Origin: Bradymonadia bacterium | GTDB taxonomy: Bacteria > Myxococcota_A > Bradymonadia > REDH01 | Length of the DNA: 64,000 bases | NCBI GenBank assembly: GCA_047629415.1 | Contig: JBLHWZ010000001.1 | Location: 3,808 to 67,807 of the forward strand | Reading direction: 5' to 3' | Shown here: positions 20,650-57,911 of the stretch, piece by piece | Layout: every line of letters begins with the position of its first letter | Numbering within the stretch: the first letter of the stretch is position 1 | Program-made: the position numbers and the translations under genes | Notes under the pieces: model-generated | What the model saw: only the letters and a program-made list of their open reading frames with translations | Databases searched by the model: none | What the model was told of the DNA's origin: nothing

Positions 20650-23286
20650 ATGCGTCCATTCCTATTCCTTCTTGCCGCTCTTCCATTTGTTGCCTGCGGC
20701 ACAGACATCCGCAACCCCAATCCAGTCGATGCAGACGAAGATGGCGTCGTGGACTCGACTCCCGATGACTGCGAGCGGTCGACGATCTTCCCCGATGCGG
20801 ACCTCGACGGGCTCGGTGCGGACGCTGGAGCGTTGCAAGCCTGTGAACAGTTCGACGGCTGGGTCGCGGTCGGCGGCGACTGCGATGATCTGGACGCGGC
20901 GATTGGTGCTGGATTCACCTACTACGCCGACGTGGATGGCGACGGAACAGGAGATCCAGCAACCCCGATGATTGCGTGTGTTGCTCCCGACGGATTCGTC
21001 GACAACGCCAACGATACCTACCCCGCCTGTGACGGCGAACTCGACGCTTGTGGTGTTTGCGATGGGCCAGGTGCCTCCACATGGTACGCGGACGTTGATG
21101 GAGATGGCGTCGGGGACGAGCGCAGCAGTGTGCTCGCGTGCGAGGCGCCCGACGGATTCGTCGCCGAGTTCGGCGATATACTCGTCGAGTGTGAAACCGA
21201 CGAATTCGATTGCGCAGGCGTCTGCGGCGGTTCGGCCGAAAACGATGAATGTGGTGTCTGCGAGGGTCCCGGAGCAGCGACTTGGTATGTGGACACCGAT
21301 GGCGATGGGATTGGCGTCGATGAGGGCGCAGTCTCTCAGTGCGACCGGCCCGAAGGCGCCGTCGACATCAGTGGTGATCCCGAGCCGGAGTGTGCGACCA
21401 ACGACACGGATACGTGCGGCCTCTGTGCCGGACCCGGCCTGATCATGTTCTTCGCCGACGCGGATGGCGACGGTCTTGGAGACCGCTTCAGCACGGCGGC
21501 TGGCTGCGAAGCGCCGATCGGCCACGTCGAAAACAACACCGATCCCGAGCCCCTCTGCGCGACCAACGACTCCGATGAGTGCGGAATCTGCGCAGGCCCT
21601 GGCCCCCTGACCGTCTACGCCGACGTAGATGGAGACGGAGTCGGCGATGAGCGCGCGGCCATCGCCGCCTGCGACCTCTCACCCGGGTTCACCCTTGAGT
21701 TTGGCGACCCCCAGCCGGAATGTGCGACCGACGACACTGACGAATGCGGAGTCTGCGCGGGTGGCAACGCCACGATGGACTGCGTCGGTGTTTGCGACGG
21801 AGCCGCAGTGCTTGATGGCTGCAGTGCTTGCACCGGCGGGACCTCGGGCAACGAGCCATCTACCCTCGACACCGATCGCGACGGCATCCCTGATGCTTGT
21901 GACCTCTGCGAGGGCGCAGAGTCTGATCGCTTCGTCATCCAGTGGAACGAGGTTTCCCCGTTCGCGGGTGCAGGCGGCCCCTACACGTTCCAGGTCACAC
22001 TCTACTCAAACGGTGAATTCCGATACCAGTACTGGGACCTCGGCACCTACGAGGCGAGCGCCACGGTGGGCTACCAGTCTCAGGCGGGTGAGGACTTCAC
22101 CGAGCTCGGGTTTGGCTCACGCTTCCCGACCGACCACCCAGTGGTGCACTTCCGAGGTCTCGACGATGGTGGGGTCGCGGTCGAATACACGCCGCCAATG
22201 TCGTGGCTGAACATCGCGGATTCGGGCACTCGTCACCCGATGCCGGACGACGGCACCGTGATCGTCGAAATCGGCTTCGACTTCGTGTTCTTCGGCCAGA
22301 CGTACACTGAGGCGATCGTGAATTCGAACGGGTTCATCTCGTTCACCGAGCCGATCCCTGGCTACTCGAACACCAACCTCCCGAATGTCGCTGCCGGCGC
22401 CCTGCTCTCTCCGCTCTGGGACGACCTCAACCCCACCCGCGGCGGCGATCTCTACACGATGTTTGTGCCGCGCGGCTGCGCGCTGGACTGCGCTGGCCAA
22501 GCCGGCGGCGTCGCGTTCACCGACACCTGCGGCGATTGCACCGGCGGTGACACCGGCATCGCCCCGAACTCCAACACCGATTGTTTCGGTGTCTGTCATG
22601 GAGAGGCCGAGCTGGACATCTGCGGGGTCTGCGTCGGCGGAACAACGGGCGTTGACCCGTCGGACCCGCTCGATTGCCCGATGGGCGTCGATCTCATGAT
22701 CGACCAGGACTACCTCGCATCGACAATGTCGATTGAGTACCTGGAAGTCCCCGAAGGCAGCTGCCTGATCGCCGAAGGCTGCGTCCGTGGCTCCGGTAAC
22801 CGGAAGCTACTCCGCTTCGGAACTCGAATTGGAAACATCGGCAACATGGACCTCTCGATCGGTGTTCCGCCGTCTCGTGGCGAGAGCACCGATATATGGA
22901 CCTGGGACAACTGTCACGGCCATCACCACTACGCTGACTACGCTGCCTACGACCTCTTCGACGTAGCCAACGATGAGCTGATCCCGATCGGCTCCAAGAC
23001 CGGCTTCTGCGTCATGGATATCGGCGTCTATGACACGAGCATCACCACCGAGTGCAACGGCTACAATTGCGGCAATCAGGGCATCTCCGCCGGCTGCCAA
23101 GACACCTACGGCCCAAGCCTTCAGTGCCAGTGGATCGACGTCACTGACATCATCGACGGCACCTACGATGTCATCGTCACGACCAACCCTGTCGGGAACA
23201 TCGAAGAGCTGAACTACGACAACAACTCGAACCAGGTTCGAGTTGAGATTACAGGCGACGACGTCGCCGTAGTCGACGCGGACTAA
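20650..23286 (+). CDS. Large lipoprotein: about 7 MopE-type putative metal-binding repeats, a central beta-rich (NIDO-like?) domain and a C-terminal lysyl oxidase catalytic domain
   Basis: Lipobox LAALPFVACG. A module of about 80 aa repeats: YADVDGDGxGD ... C.AP.GFV ... DECGVCxGPGA.TWY. The C-terminus matches lysyl oxidase closely: WTWDNCHGHHHYADYAAYDL (Cu-site His), KTGFCVMD (LTQ Lys) and QGISAGCQDTYGPSLQCQWIDVTDIIDGTYDVIVTTNP...NYDNNSNQVRVEI. Confidence 0.85.
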   Translation: MRPFLFLLAALPFVACGTDIRNPNPVDADEDGVVDSTPDDCERSTIFPDADLDGLGADAGALQACEQFDGWVAVGGDCDDLDAAIGAGFTYYADVDGDGTGDPATPMIACVAPDGFVDNANDTYPACDGELDACGVCDGPGASTWYADVDGDGVGDERSSVLACEAPDGFVAEFGDILVECETDEFDCAGVCGGSAENDECGVCEGPGAATWYVDTDGDGIGVDEGAVSQCDRPEGAVDISGDPEPECATNDTDTCGLCAGPGLIMFFADADGDGLGDRFSTAAGCEAPIGHVENNTDPEPLCATNDSDECGICAGPGPLTVYADVDGDGVGDERAAIAACDLSPGFTLEFGDPQPECATDDTDECGVCAGGNATMDCVGVCDGAAVLDGCSACTGGTSGNEPSTLDTDRDGIPDACDLCEGAESDRFVIQWNEVSPFAGAGGPYTFQVTLYSNGEFRYQYWDLGTYEASATVGYQSQAGEDFTELGFGSRFPTDHPVVHFRGLDDGGVAVEYTPPMSWLNIADSGTRHPMPDDGTVIVEIGFDFVFFGQTYTEAIVNSNGFISFTEPIPGYSNTNLPNVAAGALLSPLWDDLNPTRGGDLYTMFVPRGCALDCAGQAGGVAFTDTCGDCTGGDTGIAPNSNTDCFGVCHGEAELDICGVCVGGTTGVDPSDPLDCPMGVDLMIDQDYLASTMSIEYLEVPEGSCLIAEGCVRGSGNRKLLRFGTRIGNIGNMDLSIGVPPSRGESTDIWTWDNCHGHHHYADYAAYDLFDVANDELIPIGSKTGFCVMDIGVYDTSITTECNGYNCGNQGISAGCQDTYGPSLQCQWIDVTDIIDGTYDVIVTTNPVGNIEELNYDNNSNQVRVEITGDDVAVVDAD

Positions 23287-23435
23287 AGTCGACCTCGCGG
23301 TAGTCGACCTCGCGGTAGTCGACGCTCGGTAGTCGACGTCGTGCTAGTCGACGCTGCCGTAGTCCACGTCGTGCTAGTCCACGTCGTGCTAGTCCACGTC
23401 GTGCTAGTCCACGTCGTGCTAGTCCACGAAGCGCA
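23287..23435. repeat. 15-bp direct tandem repeat array, about 9 full and 1 partial copies (consensus AGTCCACGTCGTGCT, variants AGTCGACCTCGCGGT)
   Basis: Read from the sequence. It starts immediately after the TAA of the lysyl-oxidase fusion gene, and a related unit GTAGTCGACGCGGAC sits in the last codons. The units are contiguous with no spacers. Confidence 0.9.
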
Positions 23436-23676
23436 AAGACCGGGGGACTGCGGACCGAGCATTCGCCGTAGGCAGGTCCGTTGCGCAGGTGCGATTCAGC
23501 TGCACTTCGTTCCGCCTCCGTTGTGCCTGCGCTACTCTCCGCCTTGGGCTCATAATGCCCTCACGGTCTGTCGATTCGGGTTTCGGCGGAGTGCCCGACG
23601 CGTCGACCGGAGTCGTCACTCTACGCCGCAACGACCCATCCACGCAGCTCCTAGCCTACGCCCCCAAACCTCGCGC

Positions 23677-24399
23677 CTACAGCCCTAAAGTCGCGTGCGG
23701 AATCCAGCTCTGCGCTTCGTCACGATAAGGCGCGACGAGCTGCCGATTGGTGTCTGGTACCGCCTTACCGTCTGTCTCTTCTGCCTCACCGCCGAGCGAC
23801 CGGAGGGCGTCGAAACCCTCGAAGTTGCGCCAGTTCGAGAGCGACTCGCGGTCGAACTCGAAGTTGGTGACGAGGTCACCAATGGCACCAAACTCGGGGA
23901 GGTCGGGTAGCTCCATCGGGACGAGATTCCTCCCTAGGGCTGCGAAGAACACGCGACGGACCCAGTGGTACTCCTCAGCAGAGAAGGCCTGGGCGTTAAG
24001 CGCAGCTACTTGCTCGACCTTGGCGGCTCGCATTGCTTCGCTGAACTCGACGAAGGTGCTGATGAGTTCGTCGCGTGTGAGCTCTCCACGGTCCTGAAGA
24101 AGCGCAAGCCGCTCTCGCAGTGTGGCCTGCTCGCTGCGAGCGCTTACGATGGCGCGTTGAACCGAGACGTACCGACTCACCTGAGTTTCGCTAAGCAGCC
24201 CATCTTCAGGCGCCGCAAATGCCGTCTGATTATCGAGGCCCTCGTCGAGCGATCGGACCTCCCGAATGTTCTCGACACCTGATCCCCAATCCGAAGCGAC
24301 CGCTTCGATCGGTTTCCAGACGAGCAGGTAGCCTGCCACGCAGACGACCACCGCAAAGAGAAAGACGAAGATTGAGCAGCCGAAGAAGAGTTTTCTCAT
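23677..24399 (-). CDS. Membrane-anchored hypothetical protein (N-terminal TM helix, periplasmic helical domain)
   Basis: MRKLFFGCSIFVFLFAVVVCVAGYLLVW is a TM/signal anchor. No motif was recognised. Confidence 0.55.
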   Translation of the reverse strand: MRKLFFGCSIFVFLFAVVVCVAGYLLVWKPIEAVASDWGSGVENIREVRSLDEGLDNQTAFAAPEDGLLSETQVSRYVSVQRAIVSARSEQATLRERLALLQDRGELTRDELISTFVEFSEAMRAAKVEQVAALNAQAFSAEEYHWVRRVFFAALGRNLVPMELPDLPEFGAIGDLVTNFEFDRESLSNWRNFEGFDALRSLGGEAEETDGKAVPDTNRQLVAPYRDEAQSWIPHATLGL

Positions 24400-25058
24400 C
24401 GGTTCGAAAGTGCAGCGTTAAAGGAGTGAATTGCGGCTGATATATCACGCGCACCAAGGATCGCCCGAATTGCTGCCACTCCGTCGGCACCGGCTTCGAT
24501 GCAGCTACGCGCGTTTTCGACGGTGATTCCCCCGATCGCGACAATAGGGATCGTCGCGAGTGACGGCTGCGCGCGGAGGTCTTGGAGGACATCAGTACCG
24601 CGGGGAGCCGACGCGTTCGCCTTCGTAGGGCGAGCGTCGAAGATCGCGCCCACACCTAGGTAGTCGACGCCAGCAGACACCAGGGCATTGGCTGCCTCTA
24701 CATCGCCAGCTGAGCCCCCGAGAAGGAGGTCGGGAAACGCGTTGCGGACGTCCGACGCCGCGGTGTCGCTCGGTCCAACATGAACTCCATGGGCTCCCGC
24801 CTCGATGGCGAGCTCCGGGTCGTCATTCACAATGCAGAGAGCGCCCGCGCGCTCACAGATGTCCGCAATCAAGCGAGCTGTTGCTAGCTTCTCGGCGCGG
24901 CTGCGATCGCGTTTGTCACGGTACTGCACAACCTTTACGCCGGCCTGCACCGCGACCCCAACGGCGGCAGCATAGTGCTCAGGCCTTGTGAGGCTGTCCG
25001 GCGTGATCGCGTAAAGGCGAATGGCTCTACGCAGAACCTCAGCTTCCGGGCGACTCAT
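24396..25058 (-). CDS. thiE: Thiamine-phosphate synthase
   Basis: RLYAITPD ... VQYRDK ... GAHGVHVG ... IVAIGGI are ThiE motifs. The start is set at MSRPEAEV so that it abuts the upstream lipA stop (track ORF 24396..25133). Confidence 0.8.
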   Translation of the reverse strand: MSRPEAEVLRRAIRLYAITPDSLTRPEHYAAAVGVAVQAGVKVVQYRDKRDRSRAEKLATARLIADICERAGALCIVNDDPELAIEAGAHGVHVGPSDTAASDVRNAFPDLLLGGSAGDVEAANALVSAGVDYLGVGAIFDARPTKANASAPRGTDVLQDLRAQPSLATIPIVAIGGITVENARSCIEAGADGVAAIRAILGARDISAAIHSFNAALSNR

Positions 25059-39552: not shown

Positions 39553-40626
39553 ATGACCTTGCTCGACCAACTCCGCCCGCCCGAAACGAAGGCCCGCGCA
39601 TCCGTCGCCCGCCTCTCGAAGGCTTGGTACGTCGCCTGCTTCTCCCACGAACTCCGCGCCAAGCCAGTGGCGCGTACGATTCTCGGGATACCACTCGCCG
39701 TTTATCGGAAGTCAGATGGTTCACCCGCCGCCGTGCTGGATCGATGCGCGCACCGCAACGCTCCGCTGAGTGAAGGCCAGGTAAAGGGGGATTGCGTCGA
39801 GTGCCCTTATCATGGGTGGCAGTTCAACTCGGACGGCGACTGCACCACAGTTCCCGGCTTGATGTCAGAAGAGGCATCGCGCGGCAGGCGGGTGAGCGCG
39901 TATCCAGCTCTCGAGCGCGACGGTTTTGTTTGGATTTGGACCGACGCGGACGAGCCGCCCGATCGCGAGCCGTTTGCGTTCCCGCTCGCAGATGCAGACG
40001 GCTACACGACCGTCCGCCGTATGGTGGAGGCCGAGGGCACCATGCACTCAGTCATCGAAAACGCGCTGGACGTTCCACACACCGCATTCCTCCACAAAGG
40101 CCTCTTTCGAGGTGTTTCCGAACCCAACGAGATTGAGGTGGTCATCCGCCGAGAGACCGACAGGGTCGAGGCGGAGTACATCGGAGAGCCGCGGCCAGAG
40201 GGAGTCATCGGCAGGTTCCTTTCACCATCCGGCGGGCTCGTCGTTCATTTCGACCGGTTCATTCTCCCGTCGATTCTGCAGGTTGAGTATTCGATTGGTG
40301 ACGAGAATCATGTGCTCGTGACTGGCGCTTGTACACCGGTCAATGACTTCCACACGCGGATGTATGCGGATGTGAAGGTCCGGTCTCGCGTTCCCGGGTG
40401 GCTCGTTAAGCTGGCGACGCCACTCGGCGTGAAGGTGTTCCAGCAGGACGCCGAAATGCTCGCGCTACAGACGGAGAACATTCGGAGATTCGGCGGGGAG
40501 CAGTTCGAGTCCACCGAGATAGACGTGCTTGGCGGACATATTTGGAAGCTGCTGAGGCAGGCCGAGCGCGGAGTAGAGGCGGAGCACGCCGAGTACGCTG
40601 AGAAGCGGTTCAAACTGCGCGCCTGA
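39553..40626 (+). CDS. Rieske [2Fe-2S] non-heme iron oxygenase, VanA/PaO-like (vanillate O-demethylase oxygenase-subunit family architecture)
   Basis: N-terminal KAWYVACFSHEL (compare VanA NAWYVAC). Rieske motif CAHRNAPLSEGQVKGDCVECPYHGWQF. Length about 357 aa with a C-terminal catalytic domain (DVPHTAFLHKG). Confidence 0.8.
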   Translation: MTLLDQLRPPETKARASVARLSKAWYVACFSHELRAKPVARTILGIPLAVYRKSDGSPAAVLDRCAHRNAPLSEGQVKGDCVECPYHGWQFNSDGDCTTVPGLMSEEASRGRRVSAYPALERDGFVWIWTDADEPPDREPFAFPLADADGYTTVRRMVEAEGTMHSVIENALDVPHTAFLHKGLFRGVSEPNEIEVVIRRETDRVEAEYIGEPRPEGVIGRFLSPSGGLVVHFDRFILPSILQVEYSIGDENHVLVTGACTPVNDFHTRMYADVKVRSRVPGWLVKLATPLGVKVFQQDAEMLALQTENIRRFGGEQFESTEIDVLGGHIWKLLRQAERGVEAEHAEYAEKRFKLRA

Positions 40627-40637
40627 CCGCGCACACC

Positions 40638-41471
40638 TTGAAGAATCCTATGCCCTACTCTGCCACGGCTAGCGTCTACGAACTCAACGGAGACGTTGCG
40701 ACTCCACAGGAGCCAGCGCGAAGCGGTTGGGATCCGCGTCTCGTTAACGGGAGTTCCACCTCTGCGCTGCTGGCCGCCGTGCTCGAGCGCGACCTTGCGC
40801 GCGAGGGTCACGCCCCCGCTCGGTTCATCGTCGATATGTTGCGGCCTATTCCGTTCGCCGATGCACGAGTAGAATCAGTCGTCACCCGGATGGGAGGGCG
40901 CCTTGCGCTCGGTGATGTGTCGATGTTTGTCGGAGACAAACTCGTCGCGCGGGCTTCGGGCATGTACTTGGCGCAGAACGAAGGCGACGAGTTCGCGACC
41001 CCGAACGCAACGCCTACCTCAGCCGATCAGCTGCGAAACGGGGTGCTGCTCCCGGACTTTGGGAGCGCCAGGGAACAGCCGCCGTTCCAGCATTTCTGCG
41101 ACATTCGATGGGCGACCGAGTTCGAGGCGACCGCTCCTGTCGTATGGTTTCGGCCACCGCCGGCCTTGATCGGTGGCCTACCGCCGTCCGACACGGTTCG
41201 TGCCGTCGCAGTGGCTGACTTGCTCGCTGGTCTCACCGTCACACACCAGATACGCAGCGGTTTTCCTCACGCGGCAGCGATCAACGCTGATCAACACATC
41301 GTCTTCGCCGGAGCGCCCGTAGGTGAGTGGTTCGCGCTGCGTATGGAGAGGGTCGCAGCTTCGCAAGGAGCGGGTTTTGCGTCAGCGGACGTCCTCGATT
41401 CTAGGGGACTGCGTGGCCGAGTGACACACACACGGGTCGGAAATCGGCCGCAGGCGAGGTCGCCAAGGTAA
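40638..41471 (+). CDS. Thioesterase-like (double hot-dog / acyl-CoA thioesterase II-like) protein, tentative
   Basis: 277-aa ORF located between the Rieske and CCD genes. A fold-level resemblance was recognised by eye with low certainty. Confidence 0.45.
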   Translation: MKNPMPYSATASVYELNGDVATPQEPARSGWDPRLVNGSSTSALLAAVLERDLAREGHAPARFIVDMLRPIPFADARVESVVTRMGGRLALGDVSMFVGDKLVARASGMYLAQNEGDEFATPNATPTSADQLRNGVLLPDFGSAREQPPFQHFCDIRWATEFEATAPVVWFRPPPALIGGLPPSDTVRAVAVADLLAGLTVTHQIRSGFPHAAAINADQHIVFAGAPVGEWFALRMERVAASQGAGFASADVLDSRGLRGRVTHTRVGNRPQARSPR

Positions 41472-41522
41472 AACGGACTCCGCGACCAAGACAGTGTGCC
41501 CTGTTCCAGATAGACTGGGCCA

Positions 41523-42965
41523 ATGAACATGCATCTCAACCCGTATCTCGCTGGTCCCTACGCCCCCATCGATGCAGAGCGCGGGCCCGTTACGCTCAAC
41601 GCGATCGAAGGTGAGATCCCCCGCGATCTTAACGGGATCTACGTGCGCAACGGTCCGAACCCCAAACATGAGGCGGAGGGTCAATACCACTGGTTCGACG
41701 GTGACGGCATGCTGCATTCGGTGCTCTTTGAGGACGGCACTGCGACCTATCGTAACCGCTGGATTCAGACCTCCCACATGGCTCGCGAGACCGAGGCTGG
41801 ACGAGCGCTCTGGCGCGGTTTGCTCGAGTCCGCTGCAAGGAACCCGAGGGACTCACCTTACAAGCTCACCGCGAATACGGACGTACTGAGTTGGAACGGG
41901 AAGCTCTACTGCCTCTGGTACATCTCGGGTACGCCCTACGCAGTCGACCTCGAGACATTAGAGACGTTTGGCGAAGAGACCTTTGCGCATGAAGGACTCC
42001 GCACGACGGCACACGCCAAGGTCTGCAGCGAAACCGGGGAGCTCATCTTCTTCGACTACGGCTTCCGCGCCCCTTTTATGCGCTGCGGCGTCGTGGGAAC
42101 TGACGGAGTGGTTAGCAACCTCGCCTCGATCGATCTCGGCGGGCCCCGCCTTCCGCACGATCTCGCGATAACGCGAAACCACACAATCCTCATGGATCTA
42201 CCGGTTCTCCCAGACCCTGAGGCCCTAAAGCGGGGGCGTTGGCGAACCAGCTTCGCCTCCGAAGTGCCTGCCCGGTTCGGCGTGATGCCTCGGCACGGCC
42301 GGGGAAGCGATATTCGCTGGTTCGAGGCAGCTCCCTGCTACGTCTACCATGTCATCAACGCGTGGGAGGATGGCAACACGATCGTCATGACTGGTTGCCG
42401 CTGCCCGGACCCGATCCAAGCGCCACGCGAGCGCGATGGAAAGCTCGGTCAGATGATGGCGAACCTACGAGTCACGGCGAGTTTGCATCGTTGGACCTTC
42501 GACCTGGACACCGGCGAGTGCCGCGAAGAGCAGCTCGACGACCGCAATGCAGAGTTTCCGAGCGTCGATCTCCGAACCGTCGGCCAAGCGAACAGGCACG
42601 GTTTCACAATGGCGCTCGACATCGACTCGACCCTGCGGTTCTCCGGTATCGTGAAGTATGATCTGCACACCGCCTCGGCCACCGAATGGAGCGTCGGCGA
42701 GGGGCGCTTCGCGAGCGAGGCCCCTTTTGCCCCTCGCGACGGCAGCGAGAGCGATGACGATGGGTATCTGGTCTCGCTCGTCAGGGACGCCAACTCCGGC
42801 GGCTCTGAGTTGGTGATACTCGACGCCGCGGACCTCCAGCAGGTCTGCAGACTCAGCGTGCCGTTCGACGTGCCTAACGGATTCCACGCAACTTGGGCCG
42901 ACTCGGATGAGCTGGCCAAAGCCCGAACCGCCTCATCCTCGAATCTGCTCACTCATCGGGGTTAG
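41523..42965 (+). CDS. Carotenoid-cleavage-dioxygenase family enzyme (RPE65 family; carotenoid/stilbene/isoeugenol oxygenase-like)
   Basis: The N-terminal NPYLAGPYAPIDAE...LNAIEGEIPRDLNGIYVRNGPNP...HWFDGDGMLH is the canonical CCD start. It is about 480 aa with conserved His positions. Confidence 0.9.
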   Translation: MNMHLNPYLAGPYAPIDAERGPVTLNAIEGEIPRDLNGIYVRNGPNPKHEAEGQYHWFDGDGMLHSVLFEDGTATYRNRWIQTSHMARETEAGRALWRGLLESAARNPRDSPYKLTANTDVLSWNGKLYCLWYISGTPYAVDLETLETFGEETFAHEGLRTTAHAKVCSETGELIFFDYGFRAPFMRCGVVGTDGVVSNLASIDLGGPRLPHDLAITRNHTILMDLPVLPDPEALKRGRWRTSFASEVPARFGVMPRHGRGSDIRWFEAAPCYVYHVINAWEDGNTIVMTGCRCPDPIQAPRERDGKLGQMMANLRVTASLHRWTFDLDTGECREEQLDDRNAEFPSVDLRTVGQANRHGFTMALDIDSTLRFSGIVKYDLHTASATEWSVGEGRFASEAPFAPRDGSESDDDGYLVSLVRDANSGGSELVILDAADLQQVCRLSVPFDVPNGFHATWADSDELAKARTASSSNLLTHRG

Positions 42966-54004: not shown

Positions 54005-55837
54005 CTAGCCGCCGAAAGCAGCCAACGCCGCGATTCTGCCAAACGCGCTGCCCGGAACGTCGACCCGCACGATCGCCTCGTTGTGGTCGATCTCCCATTC
54101 GGCAGAGGAAAAAGCGCCGTGTAAGCCCGCCGCCATCAATGCGAACGTGTAGTGCTCGACCACGCTCGACCACTGTGACGAAAAGTCCTCGGCTTCCTCA
54201 CGGTTCTCGAAGACGAATCGTCCTTCGAATTTCGGCTGGCGACCTAACGAGAGCGCCGCCACCAGTTGCTGTGGAGCAGCTGTGCCAGAGCGCATGCCAT
54301 CGACTCGGAACGATCGGAAACCACTGAATGTCCACAACACCGCCGGACCGCGACGGCCGGTTCCGGCGAGGTCACCAGCCTCCAGCAAGCCGCGCATCCA
54401 AGGCGCATCGTCGCGGATTGGGGGCTCGCCATCCGCGCTGTTGCGTCGGCCGTTTCCGCGAGCATCACGCCACTCCTCAAGTGCTTCGTCACGGCGGGCT
54501 TCTGCCTGCGGCAACAGCTCCTCGCGTTGTGCGTCCCATGCGACGATCGCGCGATTTGTCTCCCGAGTTCGATCCCGTTGACGTTCGTTGCATCGAGTTC
54601 GGCCAACTCCGCGTCGGTCGTCACAACCGGGAGCGTCGTATTCTTCAGGGCGCTCGCCAACCAACCCCAACTCCACGAGGAGCTCATCGAGAGTCGGCGG
54701 CGGTCCCAGCACGGTCGAAATTGTGTTGGCCTCGTCCGCGAGGCCGCGAGCGCTCGGCGCCCCGCGCAGGAGATCATCCATCAGATCGGGTTGCGCGTAA
54801 ATCAGCAGGCGGTCCATCGGTACCAAGAAGCGACGCTGAAACGAGGTGCCCGCTCCCGGGGTTCCAAGGTACCGCCCATCACTCCGCTCCTCCCAGTTGA
54901 CGCCGCTCGGGAACCCGCGCCGGAGCTCCGACATCAGATATCCGGGGTCGAGGTGATGAACCGCTGCAACAAACGTGCGCTGGCTGTTGGAGATGTCCGT
55001 CGAGGCGAGCAACATCGTGTCGACATCGTCGATCAGGTTGATCCCCGTGTTCTCGGTCAAGTGCTGCGTATCGCCAAGCGCTCCGAAGATAGCTTCGACT
55101 TGATCGCGATACGGAGAGCGGCGGATTCGATCGTTCCTAATGATTGCCACCGAAGCGGCTCCCTCAGGGCCCCACATGCCAACGTCCGTCGCAACAGGGT
55201 TTACTGTGCCTTCTGGATACCGCTGCGTAGGGGGCAATGACGCCGGATCGACCGGTTCTTCCGGCGCTGGTGCTGCCGGCTCACTCGTTTCGGCTGGCTC
55301 ACTGGGTTCTACCGGCTCGCGACGCTCGCGAGGCCGCCGAAGTCGATCACCCGGACGGCGCGCCGGTTCGGTCCCAGCATCCGTCGGAGGCTCGTCGGTA
55401 CCGTCGTCTCCCACCTCGGGCTCTACCTGAGGCTCCACTCGCTCGGGCTCCACTTGAGGCTCGACGGGCTCGACGGGCTCGACGGGCTCGACGGGCTCGA
55501 CGGGCTCGACGGGTTCCGTCTCAAACTCAGTCATTTCCTGAGCGAGCGCCTCCATCTCTTCTTGAGTGAGTTCGGATTCGACGTACTCTTCTGGAGGCTC
55601 GTCGGATGGCTCCGCCCAACCGATCTGTGCCATCAGCGCGACACCAGCAGACTCCTGCACGTCGATGTCTACCGACACCTCAGGCGCTCTCACGGTGTAA
55701 GCGATCACCACCACCATCGAATGGAGAATCGCGGAAGCGACGAGGCACATCACCAGCCCCCGCTCGAGCAGGAGCCGGTTCTTCGAGATCGCCTCGACCT
55801 CGGTCGAGCCTGGTTCTTTTGTGCTTACTTCGTTCAT
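54005..55837 (-). CDS. Membrane-anchored hypothetical protein with a (PVE)n / Pro-Glu-rich repeat linker and a large C-terminal domain
   Basis: TM helix LVMCLVASAILHSMVVVIAYTV. The segment PVEPVEPVEPVEPVEPVEPQVEPERVEPQVEPEV is encoded by a 9-bp tandem repeat. The start at MNEVSTK is a guess. Confidence 0.55.
   Translation of the reverse strand: MNEVSTKEPGSTEVEAISKNRLLLERGLVMCLVASAILHSMVVVIAYTVRAPEVSVDIDVQESAGVALMAQIGWAEPSDEPPEEYVESELTQEEMEALAQEMTEFETEPVEPVEPVEPVEPVEPVEPQVEPERVEPQVEPEVGDDGTDEPPTDAGTEPARRPGDRLRRPRERREPVEPSEPAETSEPAAPAPEEPVDPASLPPTQRYPEGTVNPVATDVGMWGPEGAASVAIIRNDRIRRSPYRDQVEAIFGALGDTQHLTENTGINLIDDVDTMLLASTDISNSQRTFVAAVHHLDPGYLMSELRRGFPSGVNWEERSDGRYLGTPGAGTSFQRRFLVPMDRLLIYAQPDLMDDLLRGAPSARGLADEANTISTVLGPPPTLDELLVELGLVGERPEEYDAPGCDDRRGVGRTRCNERQRDRTRETNRAIVAWDAQREELLPQAEARRDEALEEWRDARGNGRRNSADGEPPIRDDAPWMRGLLEAGDLAGTGRRGPAVLWTFSGFRSFRVDGMRSGTAAPQQLVAALSLGRQPKFEGRFVFENREEAEDFSSQWSSVVEHYTFALMAAGLHGAFSSAEWEIDHNEAIVRVDVPGSAFGRIAALAAFGG
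55459..55513. repeat. 9-bp tandem repeat (GGGCTCGAC x6) inside the 54005..55837 CDS, encoding the PVE repeat on the minus strand
   Basis: Read directly; coordinates are within a few nt. Confidence 0.8.
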
Positions 55838-55970
55838 GCGTCGGTCGGGGACTGTTGCCTTGCACGCTGAGTCTTGCAACGCAACGCGAAACGCATCGGT
55901 CTGACGACCACGCCTCCAATCGATTCACCGACGCGAGCGACGCCACCCCTTAAGCGACGCCAAAAACCGA

Positions 55971-57911
55971 TTGCGCTCTTCGGCGGATGCACTAACCGAC
56001 TCGGTAATGCGAGGAAAAGTTCACGGAAATTTGCAGTCGCTTAAGTCGAGCCAGCGCAAAGCGTTGGAGAAGCTCGGCGAGAGGCGGCTTCGGCAGGATG
56101 TACCTGTGACTCCCGAGTTTGCGGGACAGATGTCACGGTTGTCCCGAGACCTTAACAAGTCGATCGGCGCGCTCGTTGATCGCCGTGGGAAAGTGACGGC
56201 TGTCGTGCTCGGCGACCACCGGCGACTCTTTCTGCCGGACCTTGGCCGCCAGCGCGCCGGCGGTTCACGGTTTCGAGGTCTGCGGCTGATACGCACACAC
56301 CTCGCCGGCGACCTCCTCTCGCACGACGACCTCACCGACCTGTCGAAACTCAATCTCGACATGGTGCTCTCGCTCCACGTCGAAAAGTCGGGGCTCCCGG
56401 GCAAGGTAGCCTGGGCGCACCTCATCCCAGACAACCCCGCTCGGGACATCTGGCGGACCGAAGAGCTCGACCACGTTAACCACGTGAACTTCTCGTTCGA
56501 CGAGTTCATCTCCGAGCTTGAAAACGAGTTCGAGGCCAAGCGTGACGTAGCCGTCGAGACGGCAAAAGACAGCGCGATCATCGTCTATGTGCGAACGCGC
56601 GACGACTGGATGCACAAGCAGAACCTCGCCGAGCTCCACGAGCTGTGCCGGACTGCCGAAGTCGCCGTCGCCGAGGAGTACGTTCAGTCCCGCATGGAGT
56701 TGGACCCGCGGACAGCGGTCGGCAGCGGTGCACTCGAGGACATCGAACTACGCTGCCTCCAGCTCGGCGCGGATATCCTCGTCTTTGGACAGGACCTGAC
56801 GCCCGCGCAGATGCGGACGATCACCAACCGAACGCAGCTTCGAGTCATCGATCGTACCCAGCTAATCCTCGATATCTTCGCGCAACGCGCGCAGTCGAGC
56901 GTCGGTAAACTGCAGGTGGAGCTCGCGCAGCTGAAGTACCAACTCCCGCGCCTGACTGGCAAAGGCACCGCGATGAGTCGCCTGGCTGGCGGCATCGGTG
57001 GACGCGGCCCCGGCGAGACCAAACTCGAGGTAGACCGGCGACGGGCCCGCGACCGCATCACCGCCCTGGAGCGCGGCATCAATAAGTTGAGCGCAACCCG
57101 CTCGCTGCGACGCAAGAATCGACGCGACAGTCGAATCCCAACCATCGCGATCGTTGGCTATACAAACGCCGGAAAGTCGACGCTCCTAAACACGCTGACG
57201 AATTCGACCGTGCTCAGCGAGGACAAGCTCTTTGCGACGCTGGATCCCACGACACGCCGGCTCCGATTCCCAGAAGAGCGTGAGGTGATTCTGACCGATA
57301 CGGTCGGCTTCATTCGCGACCTCCCTGAAGAGCTGAAAGTCTCGTTCCGAGCAACACTCGAGGAACTCGACGAGGCCAACCTTCTGCTCCACATCGTTGA
57401 CGGATCGGACGACGGTCACGACGAACACATCCGCTCTACCCACGCTCTCCTCGACGAGCTTGGCCACGACGAGACGCCACGCATGCTCGTCTTCAACAAG
57501 ACCGACAGGCTGAGCGCTGAGGAGAGGGCCAATCTAGAGACGGGCAACCCACACTCCGTGATGATCTCCGCGCTGACTCGAGCTGGCTCACGGAAGTTGC
57601 TCGAGGAAATCGACCGCTGGCTGATCGCATACGGACGGAGCGACGTCGTCCCTCACGGGTTCAGTGCCGACGAGAACGACGCCGACGAGAACGACGACGA
57701 CGAGAACGACGCCGACGAGAACGACGACGACGAGAACGACGACGACCAGAACGACGACGACGAGAACGACGACGACGAGAACGACGACGACCAGAACGAC
57801 GACGACGAGAACGACGCCGACGAGAACGACGACGACGAGAACGACGACGACGAGAACGGCAATCTTGCCGAAGGCGAGCCGGCGAGATCGAGCCGGGTGG
57901 ACCCACTTTAG
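55971..57911 (+). CDS. hflX: GTPase HflX with an N-terminal extension of about 200 aa and a C-terminal (DENDD)n polyacidic tail
   Basis: HflX N-domain (LTPAQMRTITNRTQLRVIDRTQLILDIFAQRA...GKLQVELAQLKYQLPRL). G-domain: G1 GYTNAGKST, TLDPTTRRL, DTVGF, NKTD. The tail is DENDADENDDDENDADENDDDENDDDQNDDDEN... Confidence 0.85.
   Translation: MRSSADALTDSVMRGKVHGNLQSLKSSQRKALEKLGERRLRQDVPVTPEFAGQMSRLSRDLNKSIGALVDRRGKVTAVVLGDHRRLFLPDLGRQRAGGSRFRGLRLIRTHLAGDLLSHDDLTDLSKLNLDMVLSLHVEKSGLPGKVAWAHLIPDNPARDIWRTEELDHVNHVNFSFDEFISELENEFEAKRDVAVETAKDSAIIVYVRTRDDWMHKQNLAELHELCRTAEVAVAEEYVQSRMELDPRTAVGSGALEDIELRCLQLGADILVFGQDLTPAQMRTITNRTQLRVIDRTQLILDIFAQRAQSSVGKLQVELAQLKYQLPRLTGKGTAMSRLAGGIGGRGPGETKLEVDRRRARDRITALERGINKLSATRSLRRKNRRDSRIPTIAIVGYTNAGKSTLLNTLTNSTVLSEDKLFATLDPTTRRLRFPEEREVILTDTVGFIRDLPEELKVSFRATLEELDEANLLLHIVDGSDDGHDEHIRSTHALLDELGHDETPRMLVFNKTDRLSAEERANLETGNPHSVMISALTRAGSRKLLEEIDRWLIAYGRSDVVPHGFSADENDADENDDDENDADENDDDENDDDQNDDDENDDDENDDDQNDDDENDADENDDDENDDDENGNLAEGEPARSSRVDPL
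57667..57858. repeat. 15/18-bp tandem codon repeat (GACGAGAACGACGMC, about 13 units) encoding the acidic tail of HflX
   Basis: Read directly from the sequence. Confidence 0.85.

What the first reader, a model, noticed from the sequence alone, without database searches (positions are those of the whole stretch)
23270..23435. 15-bp tandem repeat array (about 10 units) beginning in the last codons of the lysyl-oxidase fusion gene and extending into the 3' intergenic region
Nine full units, AGTCGACCTCGCGGT changing to AGTCCACGTCGTGCT, are perfectly head-to-tail with no spacers, so this is not a CRISPR array. The 3' four copies are identical, suggesting recent expansion. The unit length is a multiple of 3 and the gene's terminal codons (VAVVDAD) are themselves a repeat unit. 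Slippage could therefore extend or truncate the C-terminus (phase or length variation). The array could alternatively serve as a protein-binding site in the 390-bp convergent intergenic region.
Basis: seen in the sequence. Interest (0 to 1): 0.55.

Follow-up and report, generated by a model that had tools for sequence, protein, structure and literature searches.

The report
Variable 15-bp minisatellite after stop codon
A 15-base DNA unit repeated about ten times sits just after the stop codon of a secreted lysyl-oxidase gene in an uncultured Bradymonadia bacterium; its copy number differs between near-identical strains but the protein is unchanged, so it is most likely an ordinary variable-number tandem repeat.

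Summary
The array is real: TRF gives 23287-23428, period 15, 9.5 copies, score 152. The proper array starts at the first base after the TAA stop (23284-23286) of an 878-aa lipoprotein/NIDO/lysyl-oxidase gene. Only about two degenerate units lie in the last codons. It has five older, diverged units (one of 14 nt), then four identical AGTCCACGTCGTGCT units and a partial one.

Four other assemblies of the same species carry the array. Two have 7 and 8 copies of the perfect unit instead of 4. Two contigs end inside it. The protein tail and stop are identical in the two assemblies that include the gene end.

Orthologous loci at 83%, 68% and about 50% protein identity have short spacers and no array, with the stop at the same aligned position. 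The unit occurs nowhere else in the window or in the collections scanned. I found no Rfam match, no terminator or promoter pattern, no coding signal, and no replication, partition or mobile-element genes nearby.

Best reading: a young, lineage-specific minisatellite (VNTR) born in place from sequence around the stop codon and growing by slippage. The unit is quasi-palindromic and hairpin-prone. C-terminal phase or length variation is not supported. A binding-site role has no support. Interest is low.

The parts
20650..23286 (+). 878-aa gene: lipoprotein-type signal (MRPFLFLLAALPFVAC), Cys/Asp-rich MopE-like repeats, NIDO-like region, C-terminal lysyl oxidase domain. Stop TAA at 23284-23286.
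   Evidence: ORF list and translation. Pfam Lysyl_oxidase 1.4e-33 and NIDO 5.8e-06. Identical to NCBI MFT6395280.1, 'MAG: Bradymonadia bacterium'.
23256..23286 (+). About two degenerate repeat-like units inside the last codons (DDVAVVDAD*). The second is 16 nt and holds the stop codon.
   Evidence: 9/15 and 10/15 matches to the perfect unit. Family D2 of the repeat finder begins at 23259. The stop position aligns with the orthologues.
23287..23360 (+). Older, diverged part of the array: five units of 15, 15, 14, 15 and 15 nt. Identical in all three assemblies that span it.
   Evidence: Unit 1 aligns with the sequence just after the stop in the 83% orthologue, AGCCGACGGGCGTCT GTCCGAC, which is a 15-nt-spaced proto-repeat.
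23361..23420 (+). Perfect, copy-number-variable block (AGTCCACGTCGTGCT) x4. Each unit is quasi-palindromic (CACGtCGTG plus CTAG at the junction).
   Evidence: 4 copies here, 7 in L001 and 8 in L007. Contigs L008 and L009 end inside it. ssDNA hairpin -14.2 kcal/mol, z -5.3.
23421..23435 (+). Terminal partial or degenerate unit, with a small cluster of substitutions at the 3' edge of the array.
   Evidence: The window reads AGTCCACGAAGCGCAAAGA. Four other assemblies read AGTCCACGCTGCGCAAAGT.
23436..23676 (.). Non-repetitive, non-coding remainder of the convergent spacer.
   Evidence: GC is flat across the three codon positions, 0.58-0.70. Unique in the window and no homology to the spacer of L002. 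No Rfam hit. RNA folds are no better than shuffles, z -0.8 and -1.1.
23677..24399 (-). Convergent 240-aa gene with an N-terminal hydrophobic helix and no Pfam domain, followed by thiE and a lipoyl-synthase-like radical SAM gene.
   Evidence: Identical to NCBI MFT6395281.1. The gene order is syntenic in L002 and L014.

Best explanation
This is a young, lineage-specific minisatellite (variable-number tandem repeat) in the 3' intergenic DNA of the lysyl-oxidase gene. It has no demonstrated function.

Proposed history (inferred):
1. A GTCGAC-rich stretch spanning the stop codon already held a weak 15-nt-spaced proto-repeat.
2. That stretch was duplicated in place, producing the diverged 5' units. 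A 30-bp higher-order duplication is visible: units 4+5 resemble unit 6 plus the terminal partial unit.
3. One 15-bp unit, AGTCCACGTCGTGCT, is now expanding and contracting by replication slippage or unequal recombination.

The unit is quasi-palindromic, so slipped strands can fold into hairpins. That would be expected to favour instability.

All change happens downstream of the stop codon, so the protein is unaffected. The only consequence shown is a change in spacer length (390, 435 or 450 bp) and broken short-read assemblies.
For: Shown directly:
- Array anatomy, running from diverged 5' units to four identical 3' units.
- Three assemblies of the same species have 4, 7 and 8 copies of the perfect unit with identical left flanks. 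One of them, aligned in full, differs from the window by 1 substitution in about 3.5 kb outside the array region. The encoded proteins differ by 1 and 2 residues.
- Two further assemblies break inside the array. The Logan contig L008 starts exactly 30 nt before the first non-periodic base, as a k=31 graph requires. Logan contigs hold every 31-mer only once (PMC12424806).
- The protein tail and stop are unchanged in the two alleles that include the gene end.
- The array is absent from syntenic orthologous loci: the 83% clade has a 91-nt spacer in two independent assemblies, L002 and L014. It is also absent at 68% (L003) and about 50% identity (L012/13, L015-17).
- The stop is positionally conserved, and L002 carries a proto-repeat AGCCGAC...(15)...GTCCGAC aligned with unit 1.
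- The unit is not dispersed. There are no other copies in the window. There were 0 hits in species-representative genomes and one chance 1.5-unit hit in JGI metagenomes.
- No Rfam family, no terminator or promoter pattern, no coding signal.
- The surrounding genes are chromosomal housekeeping genes, with no rep, par or transposase.
- The perfect block folds as a long imperfect hairpin: ssDNA -14.2 kcal/mol for 4 units, z -5.3.
Against: - Copy numbers come from short-read metagenome assemblies. Perfect periodic runs of 68-128 nt are close to the read and k-mer lengths, so 4, 7 and 8 may be mis-estimates. The fact of variation is not proven without reads.
- Neutrality is an argument from absence: no conservation, no partner, no motif. 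The array exists only in one shallow lineage, so selection cannot be measured.
- A different tandem repeat seems to occupy the same site in a sister lineage. That could mean the site is more than a random hot spot.
- The hairpin potential grows with copy number (RNA -57.5 kcal/mol for the 8-copy allele), so an effect on 3'-end formation is not excluded.
Confidence: 0.75

Rival explanations
1. The array is a functional 3'-end element. Transcribed from either convergent gene, it folds into a long imperfect hairpin. That hairpin would act as a terminator without a U-tract, or as a 3' stabiliser against exonucleases in the way REP/BIME elements work in E. coli. Copy number would tune its strength.
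For: The perfect block is self-complementary: ssDNA -14.2 kcal/mol, z -5.3, and -16.2, z -5.0, on the other strand. RNA of the 8-copy allele gives -57.5 kcal/mol, z -5.1. It lies between two convergent genes, where a bidirectional stop would be useful. A second, unrelated tandem repeat appears to sit at the same place in a sister lineage.
Against: In its real context the window allele does not fold better than shuffles: z -1.2 and -0.6 for 201 nt, and -0.8 and -2.3 for 100 nt. There is no U-tract, and no terminator-like site was found. The 83% clade manages with a 91-nt spacer and no array. There is no Rfam match. Self-complementarity follows automatically from a quasi-palindromic unit being repeated.
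Confidence: 0.12
2. The array is a set of protein-binding sites (iteron-, operator- or centromere-like) that recruits a dimeric DNA-binding protein to the dyad-symmetric cores.
For: Each unit contains small palindromes: GTCGAC or CACGtCGTG, and CTAG. Tandem short repeats are how iterons and parC-type centromeres are built (established knowledge).
Against: The motif occurs nowhere else in 64 kb. No Rep, Par or recognised DNA-binding gene lies within about 10 kb on either side, and the context is chromosomal housekeeping. The site lies at the 3' ends of both flanking genes, not at a promoter. It is absent from the orthologous loci. A 15-bp period puts successive sites on different faces of the helix (inference).
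Confidence: 0.05
3. The array is a contingency locus. Slippage would change the length or frame of the lysyl-oxidase C-terminus.
For: The unit length is a multiple of 3, and the last codons resemble a unit. The frame after the stop stays open through the array to 23688. Tail length differs between lineages, 878 against 883 aa.
Against: The stop precedes every well-conserved unit. The two other alleles that include the gene end keep the same tail and stop. The stop is positionally conserved in orthologues. The read-through product is Arg-rich and does not look like protein, with no codon-position GC contrast. A unit that is a multiple of three cannot switch the frame on and off.
Confidence: 0.03
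4. The array or its copy-number differences are an assembly artefact.
For: Two contigs terminate in the array. Perfect runs of 68-128 nt are hard for short-read assemblers. Logan contigs cannot contain a repeated 31-mer.
Against: The array itself, with identical diverged 5' units and flanks, is recovered in five independent assemblies from different samples and pipelines. Assemblers collapse or break tandem repeats; they do not invent diverged units. Only the exact copy numbers are in doubt.
Confidence: 0.05

Closest known systems
Bacterial VNTR / minisatellite loci used for MLVA typing (e.g. MIRU-VNTR loci of Mycobacterium tuberculosis; own knowledge)
   Same: Head-to-tail repeats of a 10-100 bp unit in intergenic DNA of a high-GC chromosome. 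Copy number differs between otherwise near-identical strains. Older units are diverged and the active units are homogeneous. No phenotype is required.
   Different: The unit is shorter (15 bp) than MIRUs (about 40-100 bp). It is a single locus rather than a dispersed family. It is known only from metagenome assemblies, so copy numbers are not verified.
Simple-sequence contingency loci (phase-variable genes of Neisseria, Haemophilus, Campylobacter; own knowledge)
   Same: Tandem repeats next to or overlapping a gene for a surface or secreted protein. Slippage is the mutational mechanism.
   Different: Contingency repeats have 1-8 nt units inside the reading frame or promoter and switch expression on and off. 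Here the unit is 15 nt, lies after the stop, and the variation leaves the protein unchanged.
REP/BIME-type extragenic palindromes at 3' ends of genes (own knowledge)
   Same: GC-rich, hairpin-capable sequence in a 3' intergenic region between convergent genes. It could in principle stabilise the 3' ends of transcripts.
   Different: REP elements are dispersed in hundreds of copies per genome and are conserved as a family. This unit is found at one locus only.
Plasmid iterons and parC-type centromere repeats (own knowledge)
   Same: Short direct repeats in tandem that contain small dyad symmetries.
   Different: No origin, Rep or Par genes nearby. The setting is a chromosomal housekeeping region. 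The position is 3' of both flanking genes. It is not conserved in relatives.
CRISPR arrays
   Same: Short repeated units in non-coding DNA.
   Different: No spacers between units, and a 15-bp unit is too short for a CRISPR repeat. No cas domain turned up among the 35 predicted proteins I scanned.

Membership tests
VNTR / minisatellite | Head-to-tail copies of a unit of about 10-100 bp, far beyond chance | tested here: met
   TRF gives period 15, 9.5 copies, score 152. 0 of 100 shuffles reach the observed number of unit matches.
VNTR / minisatellite | Copy number differs between closely related strains at the same locus | tested here: met
   4, 7 and 8 copies of the perfect unit in the window, L001 and L007, with identical flanks. 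Caveat: these are short-read assemblies, and two further contigs break in the array.
VNTR / minisatellite | Locus-specific origin: absent or much shorter at the orthologous site of relatives | tested here: met
   The 83% clade has a 91-nt spacer with only a 2-unit proto-repeat. There is no array at the 68% and about 50% loci.
Contingency (phase-variable) locus | The repeat tract lies in the reading frame or promoter, so copy change alters the frame, the protein or expression | tested here: not met
   The variable block 23361-23420 is 75 nt past the stop. The other two alleles that include the gene end encode the same tail and stop. The unit is a multiple of 3.
CRISPR array | Repeats of about 23-50 bp separated by unique spacers of similar length | tested here: not met
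   Start-to-start spacing equals the unit length, 15. There are no spacers.
Dispersed extragenic repeats (REP/BIME, MITE) | Many copies of the same element at different loci in the genome | tested here: not met
   No other copy in 64 kb. 0 hits in the genome collection. One chance hit in the metagenome collection. The rest of this genome was not available.
Iterons / centromere-like repeats | Adjacent replication-initiator or partition genes, or an origin context | tested here: not met
   The neighbours are a glycosyltransferase, the lysyl-oxidase fusion gene, a membrane protein, thiE, a radical SAM gene, an ABC transporter and an M50 peptidase. GC skew shows no switch.
Iterons / centromere-like repeats | Specific binding by a cognate protein | not testable with these tools
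   This needs EMSA, DAP-seq or ChIP.
Intrinsic (rho-independent) terminator | A stable GC-rich hairpin followed by a U-tract at the 3' end of a gene | tested here: not met
   0 terminator-like sites in 22800-24200. Hairpin potential exists, but there is no T-run after it. In context the z scores are -0.6 to -2.3.
Known structured RNA (Rfam) | Match to a curated covariance model | tested here: not met
   0 matches at E<=1 in 22500-24500 on either strand.

The most novel reading that the evidence does not exclude
The first bases after this gene's stop codon may be a recurrent birthplace of tandem repeats. The window lineage has a 15-bp array there. A sister lineage with 85% protein identity appears to have an unrelated 30-bp array, CCACCCATCCGGCCCGCCGCGCCACCCGCA, in at least 2.6 copies starting 2 nt after its stop. 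That second array is inferred only from the geometry of a contig break.

If this is not coincidence, two readings are open. The site could be structurally prone to duplication, for example through a collision zone of convergent transcription or replication. Alternatively, a hairpin-forming array whose strength depends on copy number could be selected as a 3'-end element (terminator or stabiliser) for the convergent gene pair.
Probability: 0.1. Interest if true: 0.4.

Novelty: new member of a known kind. Interest (0 to 1): 0.15.

Why it matters
Its main use is practical.
- It is a ready-made strain marker (VNTR) for an uncultured Bradymonadia population.
- It is a documented cause of contig breaks and copy-number errors in short-read metagenome assemblies of this organism.
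- It shows the birth of a minisatellite clearly: a proto-repeat in one clade, then diverged old units and an actively varying perfect block in the next.

It does not change the lysyl-oxidase protein, and nothing suggests a new mechanism. It would be of wider interest only if the hairpin-forming array affected 3'-end formation of the convergent genes.

Tried and rejected
- **Coding extension of the gene.** The frame stays open through the array to 23688. However, the product is Arg-rich and does not look like protein, and the spacer has flat GC at the three codon positions. Orthologues stop at the same position. Rejected.
- **A small gene in the spacer.** ORFs 23341-23688 (+), 23419-23643 (-) and 23489-23728 (+) have no codon-position signal. 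Rejected.
- **Known RNA family.** No match.
- **Structured RNA.** Folds of the array and of the spacer in context are no better than shuffles.
- **Promoter or terminator patterns.** None found.
- **Dispersed repeat or mobile element.** Self-BLAST of the spacer finds nothing else. The two-unit pattern gave 0 hits in the GTDB species-representative genomes. In JGI metagenome contigs it gave one hit, a chance 1.5-unit match in an unrelated context (L005).
- **Protein-based scan of genome contigs for closer relatives.** It returned only two distant NIDO-region matches at 29-35% identity. Uninformative.
- **Literature search for tandem repeats in Bradymonadales.** Nothing found.
- **Exact look-up of the window's own protein (P0122).** No contig on record, so the source MAG contig could not be re-fetched for comparison.
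Full report
**1. What is in the sequence**

The window has 60-65% GC. The + strand ORF 20650-23286 encodes an 878-aa protein. It has a lipoprotein-type signal, Cys/Asp-rich repeats of the MopE type, a NIDO-like region and a C-terminal lysyl oxidase domain (Pfam PF01186, 1.4e-33). Its stop codon is TAA at 23284-23286.

The next gene, 23677-24399, runs on the - strand. It encodes 240 aa with an N-terminal hydrophobic helix and no Pfam domain.

Tandem Repeats Finder reports 23287-23428, period 15, 9.5 copies, 88% matches, score 152. Read unit by unit:
- two repeat-like units lie in the last codons: 23256-23270, and 23271-23286, which is 16 nt and includes the stop;
- five diverged units follow the stop, of 15, 15, 14, 15 and 15 nt;
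- then four identical AGTCCACGTCGTGCT units at 23361-23420;
- then a partial unit.

The +1 unit and the -1 unit compensate each other, so the array keeps its overall register. It is not "perfectly head-to-tail" in 15s. The signal is far above chance.

**2. Whose genome it is, and the setting**

The lysyl-oxidase protein and the 240-aa protein are identical to NCBI MFT6395280.1 and MFT6395281.1, from "MAG: Bradymonadia bacterium", on a 71-kb contig.

The neighbours are ordinary chromosomal genes:
- a glycosyltransferase, thiE, and a lipoyl-synthase-like radical SAM gene;
- a FecCD/ABC transporter and an M50 peptidase;
- E1 dehydrogenase subunits, HflX and Mfd.

I found no replication, partition, transposase or cas domain among the 35 predicted proteins scanned.

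**3. Comparison with other assemblies of the same species**

Two JGI contigs span the array.
- L001 (sample 3300047666) encodes a protein that differs from the window's by F186L.
- L007 (sample 3300047667) encodes a protein that differs by F186L and S453P.

Both have exactly the same diverged 5' units. They carry 7 and 8 copies of the perfect unit, against 4 in the window.

Outside the array region, the window and L001 differ by a single substitution in about 3.5 kb. Three more substitutions cluster within 12 nt of the 3' edge of the array.

Two further contigs of the same species come from the other side and end inside the array: L008 (Logan SRR28417388) and L009 (JGI 3300049783). L008 begins exactly 30 nt before the first non-periodic base. 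That is what a k=31 de Bruijn graph gives at a perfect tandem repeat. The Logan paper states that every 31-mer is distinct in its contigs by construction (PMC12424806).

So the array is recovered in five independent assemblies and is not an artefact. It is the most variable point of the locus. The exact copy numbers still need read-level confirmation.

**4. Comparison with relatives**

The syntenic locus of the 83% clade has a 91-nt spacer and no array. Two assemblies agree on this, L002 and L014. Loci at 68% identity (L003) and about 50% identity (L012/13, L015-17) have none either.

In the nucleotide alignment the stop codons of the window, L002 and L003 fall in the same column. The proteins are 878, 878 and 877 aa. 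The sequence just after the stop in L002 is AGCCGACGGGCGTCT GTCCGAC. It aligns with unit 1 of the array and already has a 15-nt spacing of CCGAC. I read this as the seed from which the array grew; that is an inference.

Within the array, units 4+5 (AGTCGACGTCGTGCT AGTCGACGCTGCCGT) resemble unit 6 plus the terminal partial unit of the JGI alleles (AGTCCACGTCGTGCT ... AGTCCACGCTGCGCA). This suggests an older 30-bp duplication followed by the current 15-bp expansion, also an inference.

**5. Tests for function**

- No Rfam family matches on either strand.
- There is no promoter-like or terminator-like site.
- The non-repeat spacer has no codon-position GC contrast. It is unique in the window.
- RNA folds of the array and the spacer in context do not beat shuffles, with z from -0.6 to -1.2.
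- The unit and its cores occur nowhere else in the window.
- A two-unit pattern found nothing in the species-representative genomes. In the JGI metagenome contigs it gave one chance match only.

One positive property stands out. The perfect unit is quasi-palindromic (CACGtCGTG, and CTAG at the junction). The perfect block alone therefore folds into a long imperfect hairpin:
- ssDNA -14.2 and -16.2 kcal/mol for four units, z about -5;
- RNA -57.5 kcal/mol for the 8-copy allele, z -5.1.

For the window allele with its flanks, z is only -0.8 on the + strand and -2.3 on the - strand. I take the hairpin mainly as the likely reason the tract slips easily. It also leaves open a weak possibility of an effect on the 3' ends of transcripts.

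**6.

Slippage cannot lengthen or shorten the protein here.
- The variable block lies 75 nt beyond the stop.
- The three alleles have the same tail and stop.
- The coding units are diverged, at 9-10 of 15 matches.
- The stop is ancestral in position.
- A 15-nt unit cannot shift the frame.

What is true is that the acidic Val/Asp tail varies between lineages: GDDVAVVDAD, GDEVEVVPEP, GDEVEVDHEH, and a tail five residues longer, GDVVDVVPDAVDPAP, in an 85%-identical relative. The GTCGAC-rich end of the gene is therefore indel-prone over evolutionary time.

**7. An unexpected observation**

In the 85%-identical relative (sample ERR13955096) the locus is split between two contigs.
- L006 ends 32 nt after the lysyl-oxidase stop.
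- L019 ends 119 nt after the stop of the 240-aa gene.

The two contigs overlap by 13 nt and share a 17-nt direct repeat. Both break points fall exactly where a k=31 graph would break a tandem array of the 30-nt unit CCACCCATCCGGCCCGCCGCGCCACCCGCA with at least two full copies plus 17 nt. With a single copy there would be no repeated 31-mer and no reason for a break.

So a second, unrelated tandem repeat probably starts 2 nt after the stop in the sister lineage. This is an inference from assembly geometry. It suggests the site is a hot spot and is the basis of the "novel case".

**8. Verdict**

The array is best explained as a young, lineage-specific, copy-number-variable minisatellite born in place next to the stop codon (confidence about 0.75).

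The rivals, in order of my confidence:
- a hairpin 3'-end element (0.12);
- a protein-binding array (0.05);
- artefactual copy numbers (0.05);
- C-terminal phase variation (0.03).

It is a new member of a well-known kind. It is useful as a strain marker and as a warning for assembly, but otherwise ordinary. Interest 0.15.

Noticed in passing
window 57668-57858 (within gene 55971-57911, +): A second 15-bp tandem array (CGACGAGAACGACGA, 12.7 copies, 94% matches, TRF score 347). It is coding and gives a (D/A)DEND-type acidic repeat tail on an HflX-family GTPase (Pfam GTP-bdg_N, GTP-bdg_M, MMR_HSR1). A long acidic repeat tail on HflX looked unusual to me. Unlike the array under study, this one could change protein length by slippage.
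   Followed up: partly
window 55415-55513 (within ORF 54005-55879, -): A perfect 9-bp repeat (GGCTCGACG, 6.2 copies) and a 27-bp repeat, encoding (EPV)n in a 624-aa protein with no Pfam domain. This is another coding tandem repeat, so such repeats are common in this genome.
   Followed up: partly
L006 7653-7684 and L019 3724-3842 (sample ERR13955096): In an 85%-identical relative the contigs on both sides of the same intergenic region break. The break points fit a tandem 30-nt repeat (CCACCCATCCGGCCCGCCGCGCCACCCGCA, at least 2 copies plus 17 nt) beginning 2 nt after the lysyl-oxidase stop. This would be an unrelated array at the same site.
   Followed up: partly
window 23429-23439: There is a cluster of 3 substitutions at the 3' edge of the array. 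The window reads GAAGCGCAAAGA and four other assemblies read GCTGCGCAAAGT. The remaining 3.5 kb shows 1 substitution. In the other assemblies the flank forms a small perfect palindrome, AGTCC-GGG-GGACT, which the window allele breaks.
   Followed up: partly
window 20650-23286: The gene has an unusual architecture: lipoprotein signal, about six MopE-like Cys/Asp repeats, a NIDO-like region and a lysyl oxidase domain. About 50 full-length relatives were found, all from uncultured Myxococcota- or Bradymonadia-type metagenome bins and none characterised. The short acidic C-terminal tail after ...VRVEITG differs in sequence and length between lineages.
   Followed up: partly
window 39553-42965: Adjacent genes encode a Rieske/VanA-type oxygenase (39553-40626) and an RPE65-family carotenoid cleavage oxygenase (41523-42965, Pfam 1.2e-127). 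A 277-aa ORF between them holds a 22-bp x2.4 repeat at 41325-41375.
   Followed up: no
L018 1644-1652 (sample ERR13847227): A contig from a third relative (84% identity in the 240-aa protein) ends only 9 nt after that gene's stop. The same intergenic region may be hard to assemble there too. The cause is unknown.
   Followed up: no
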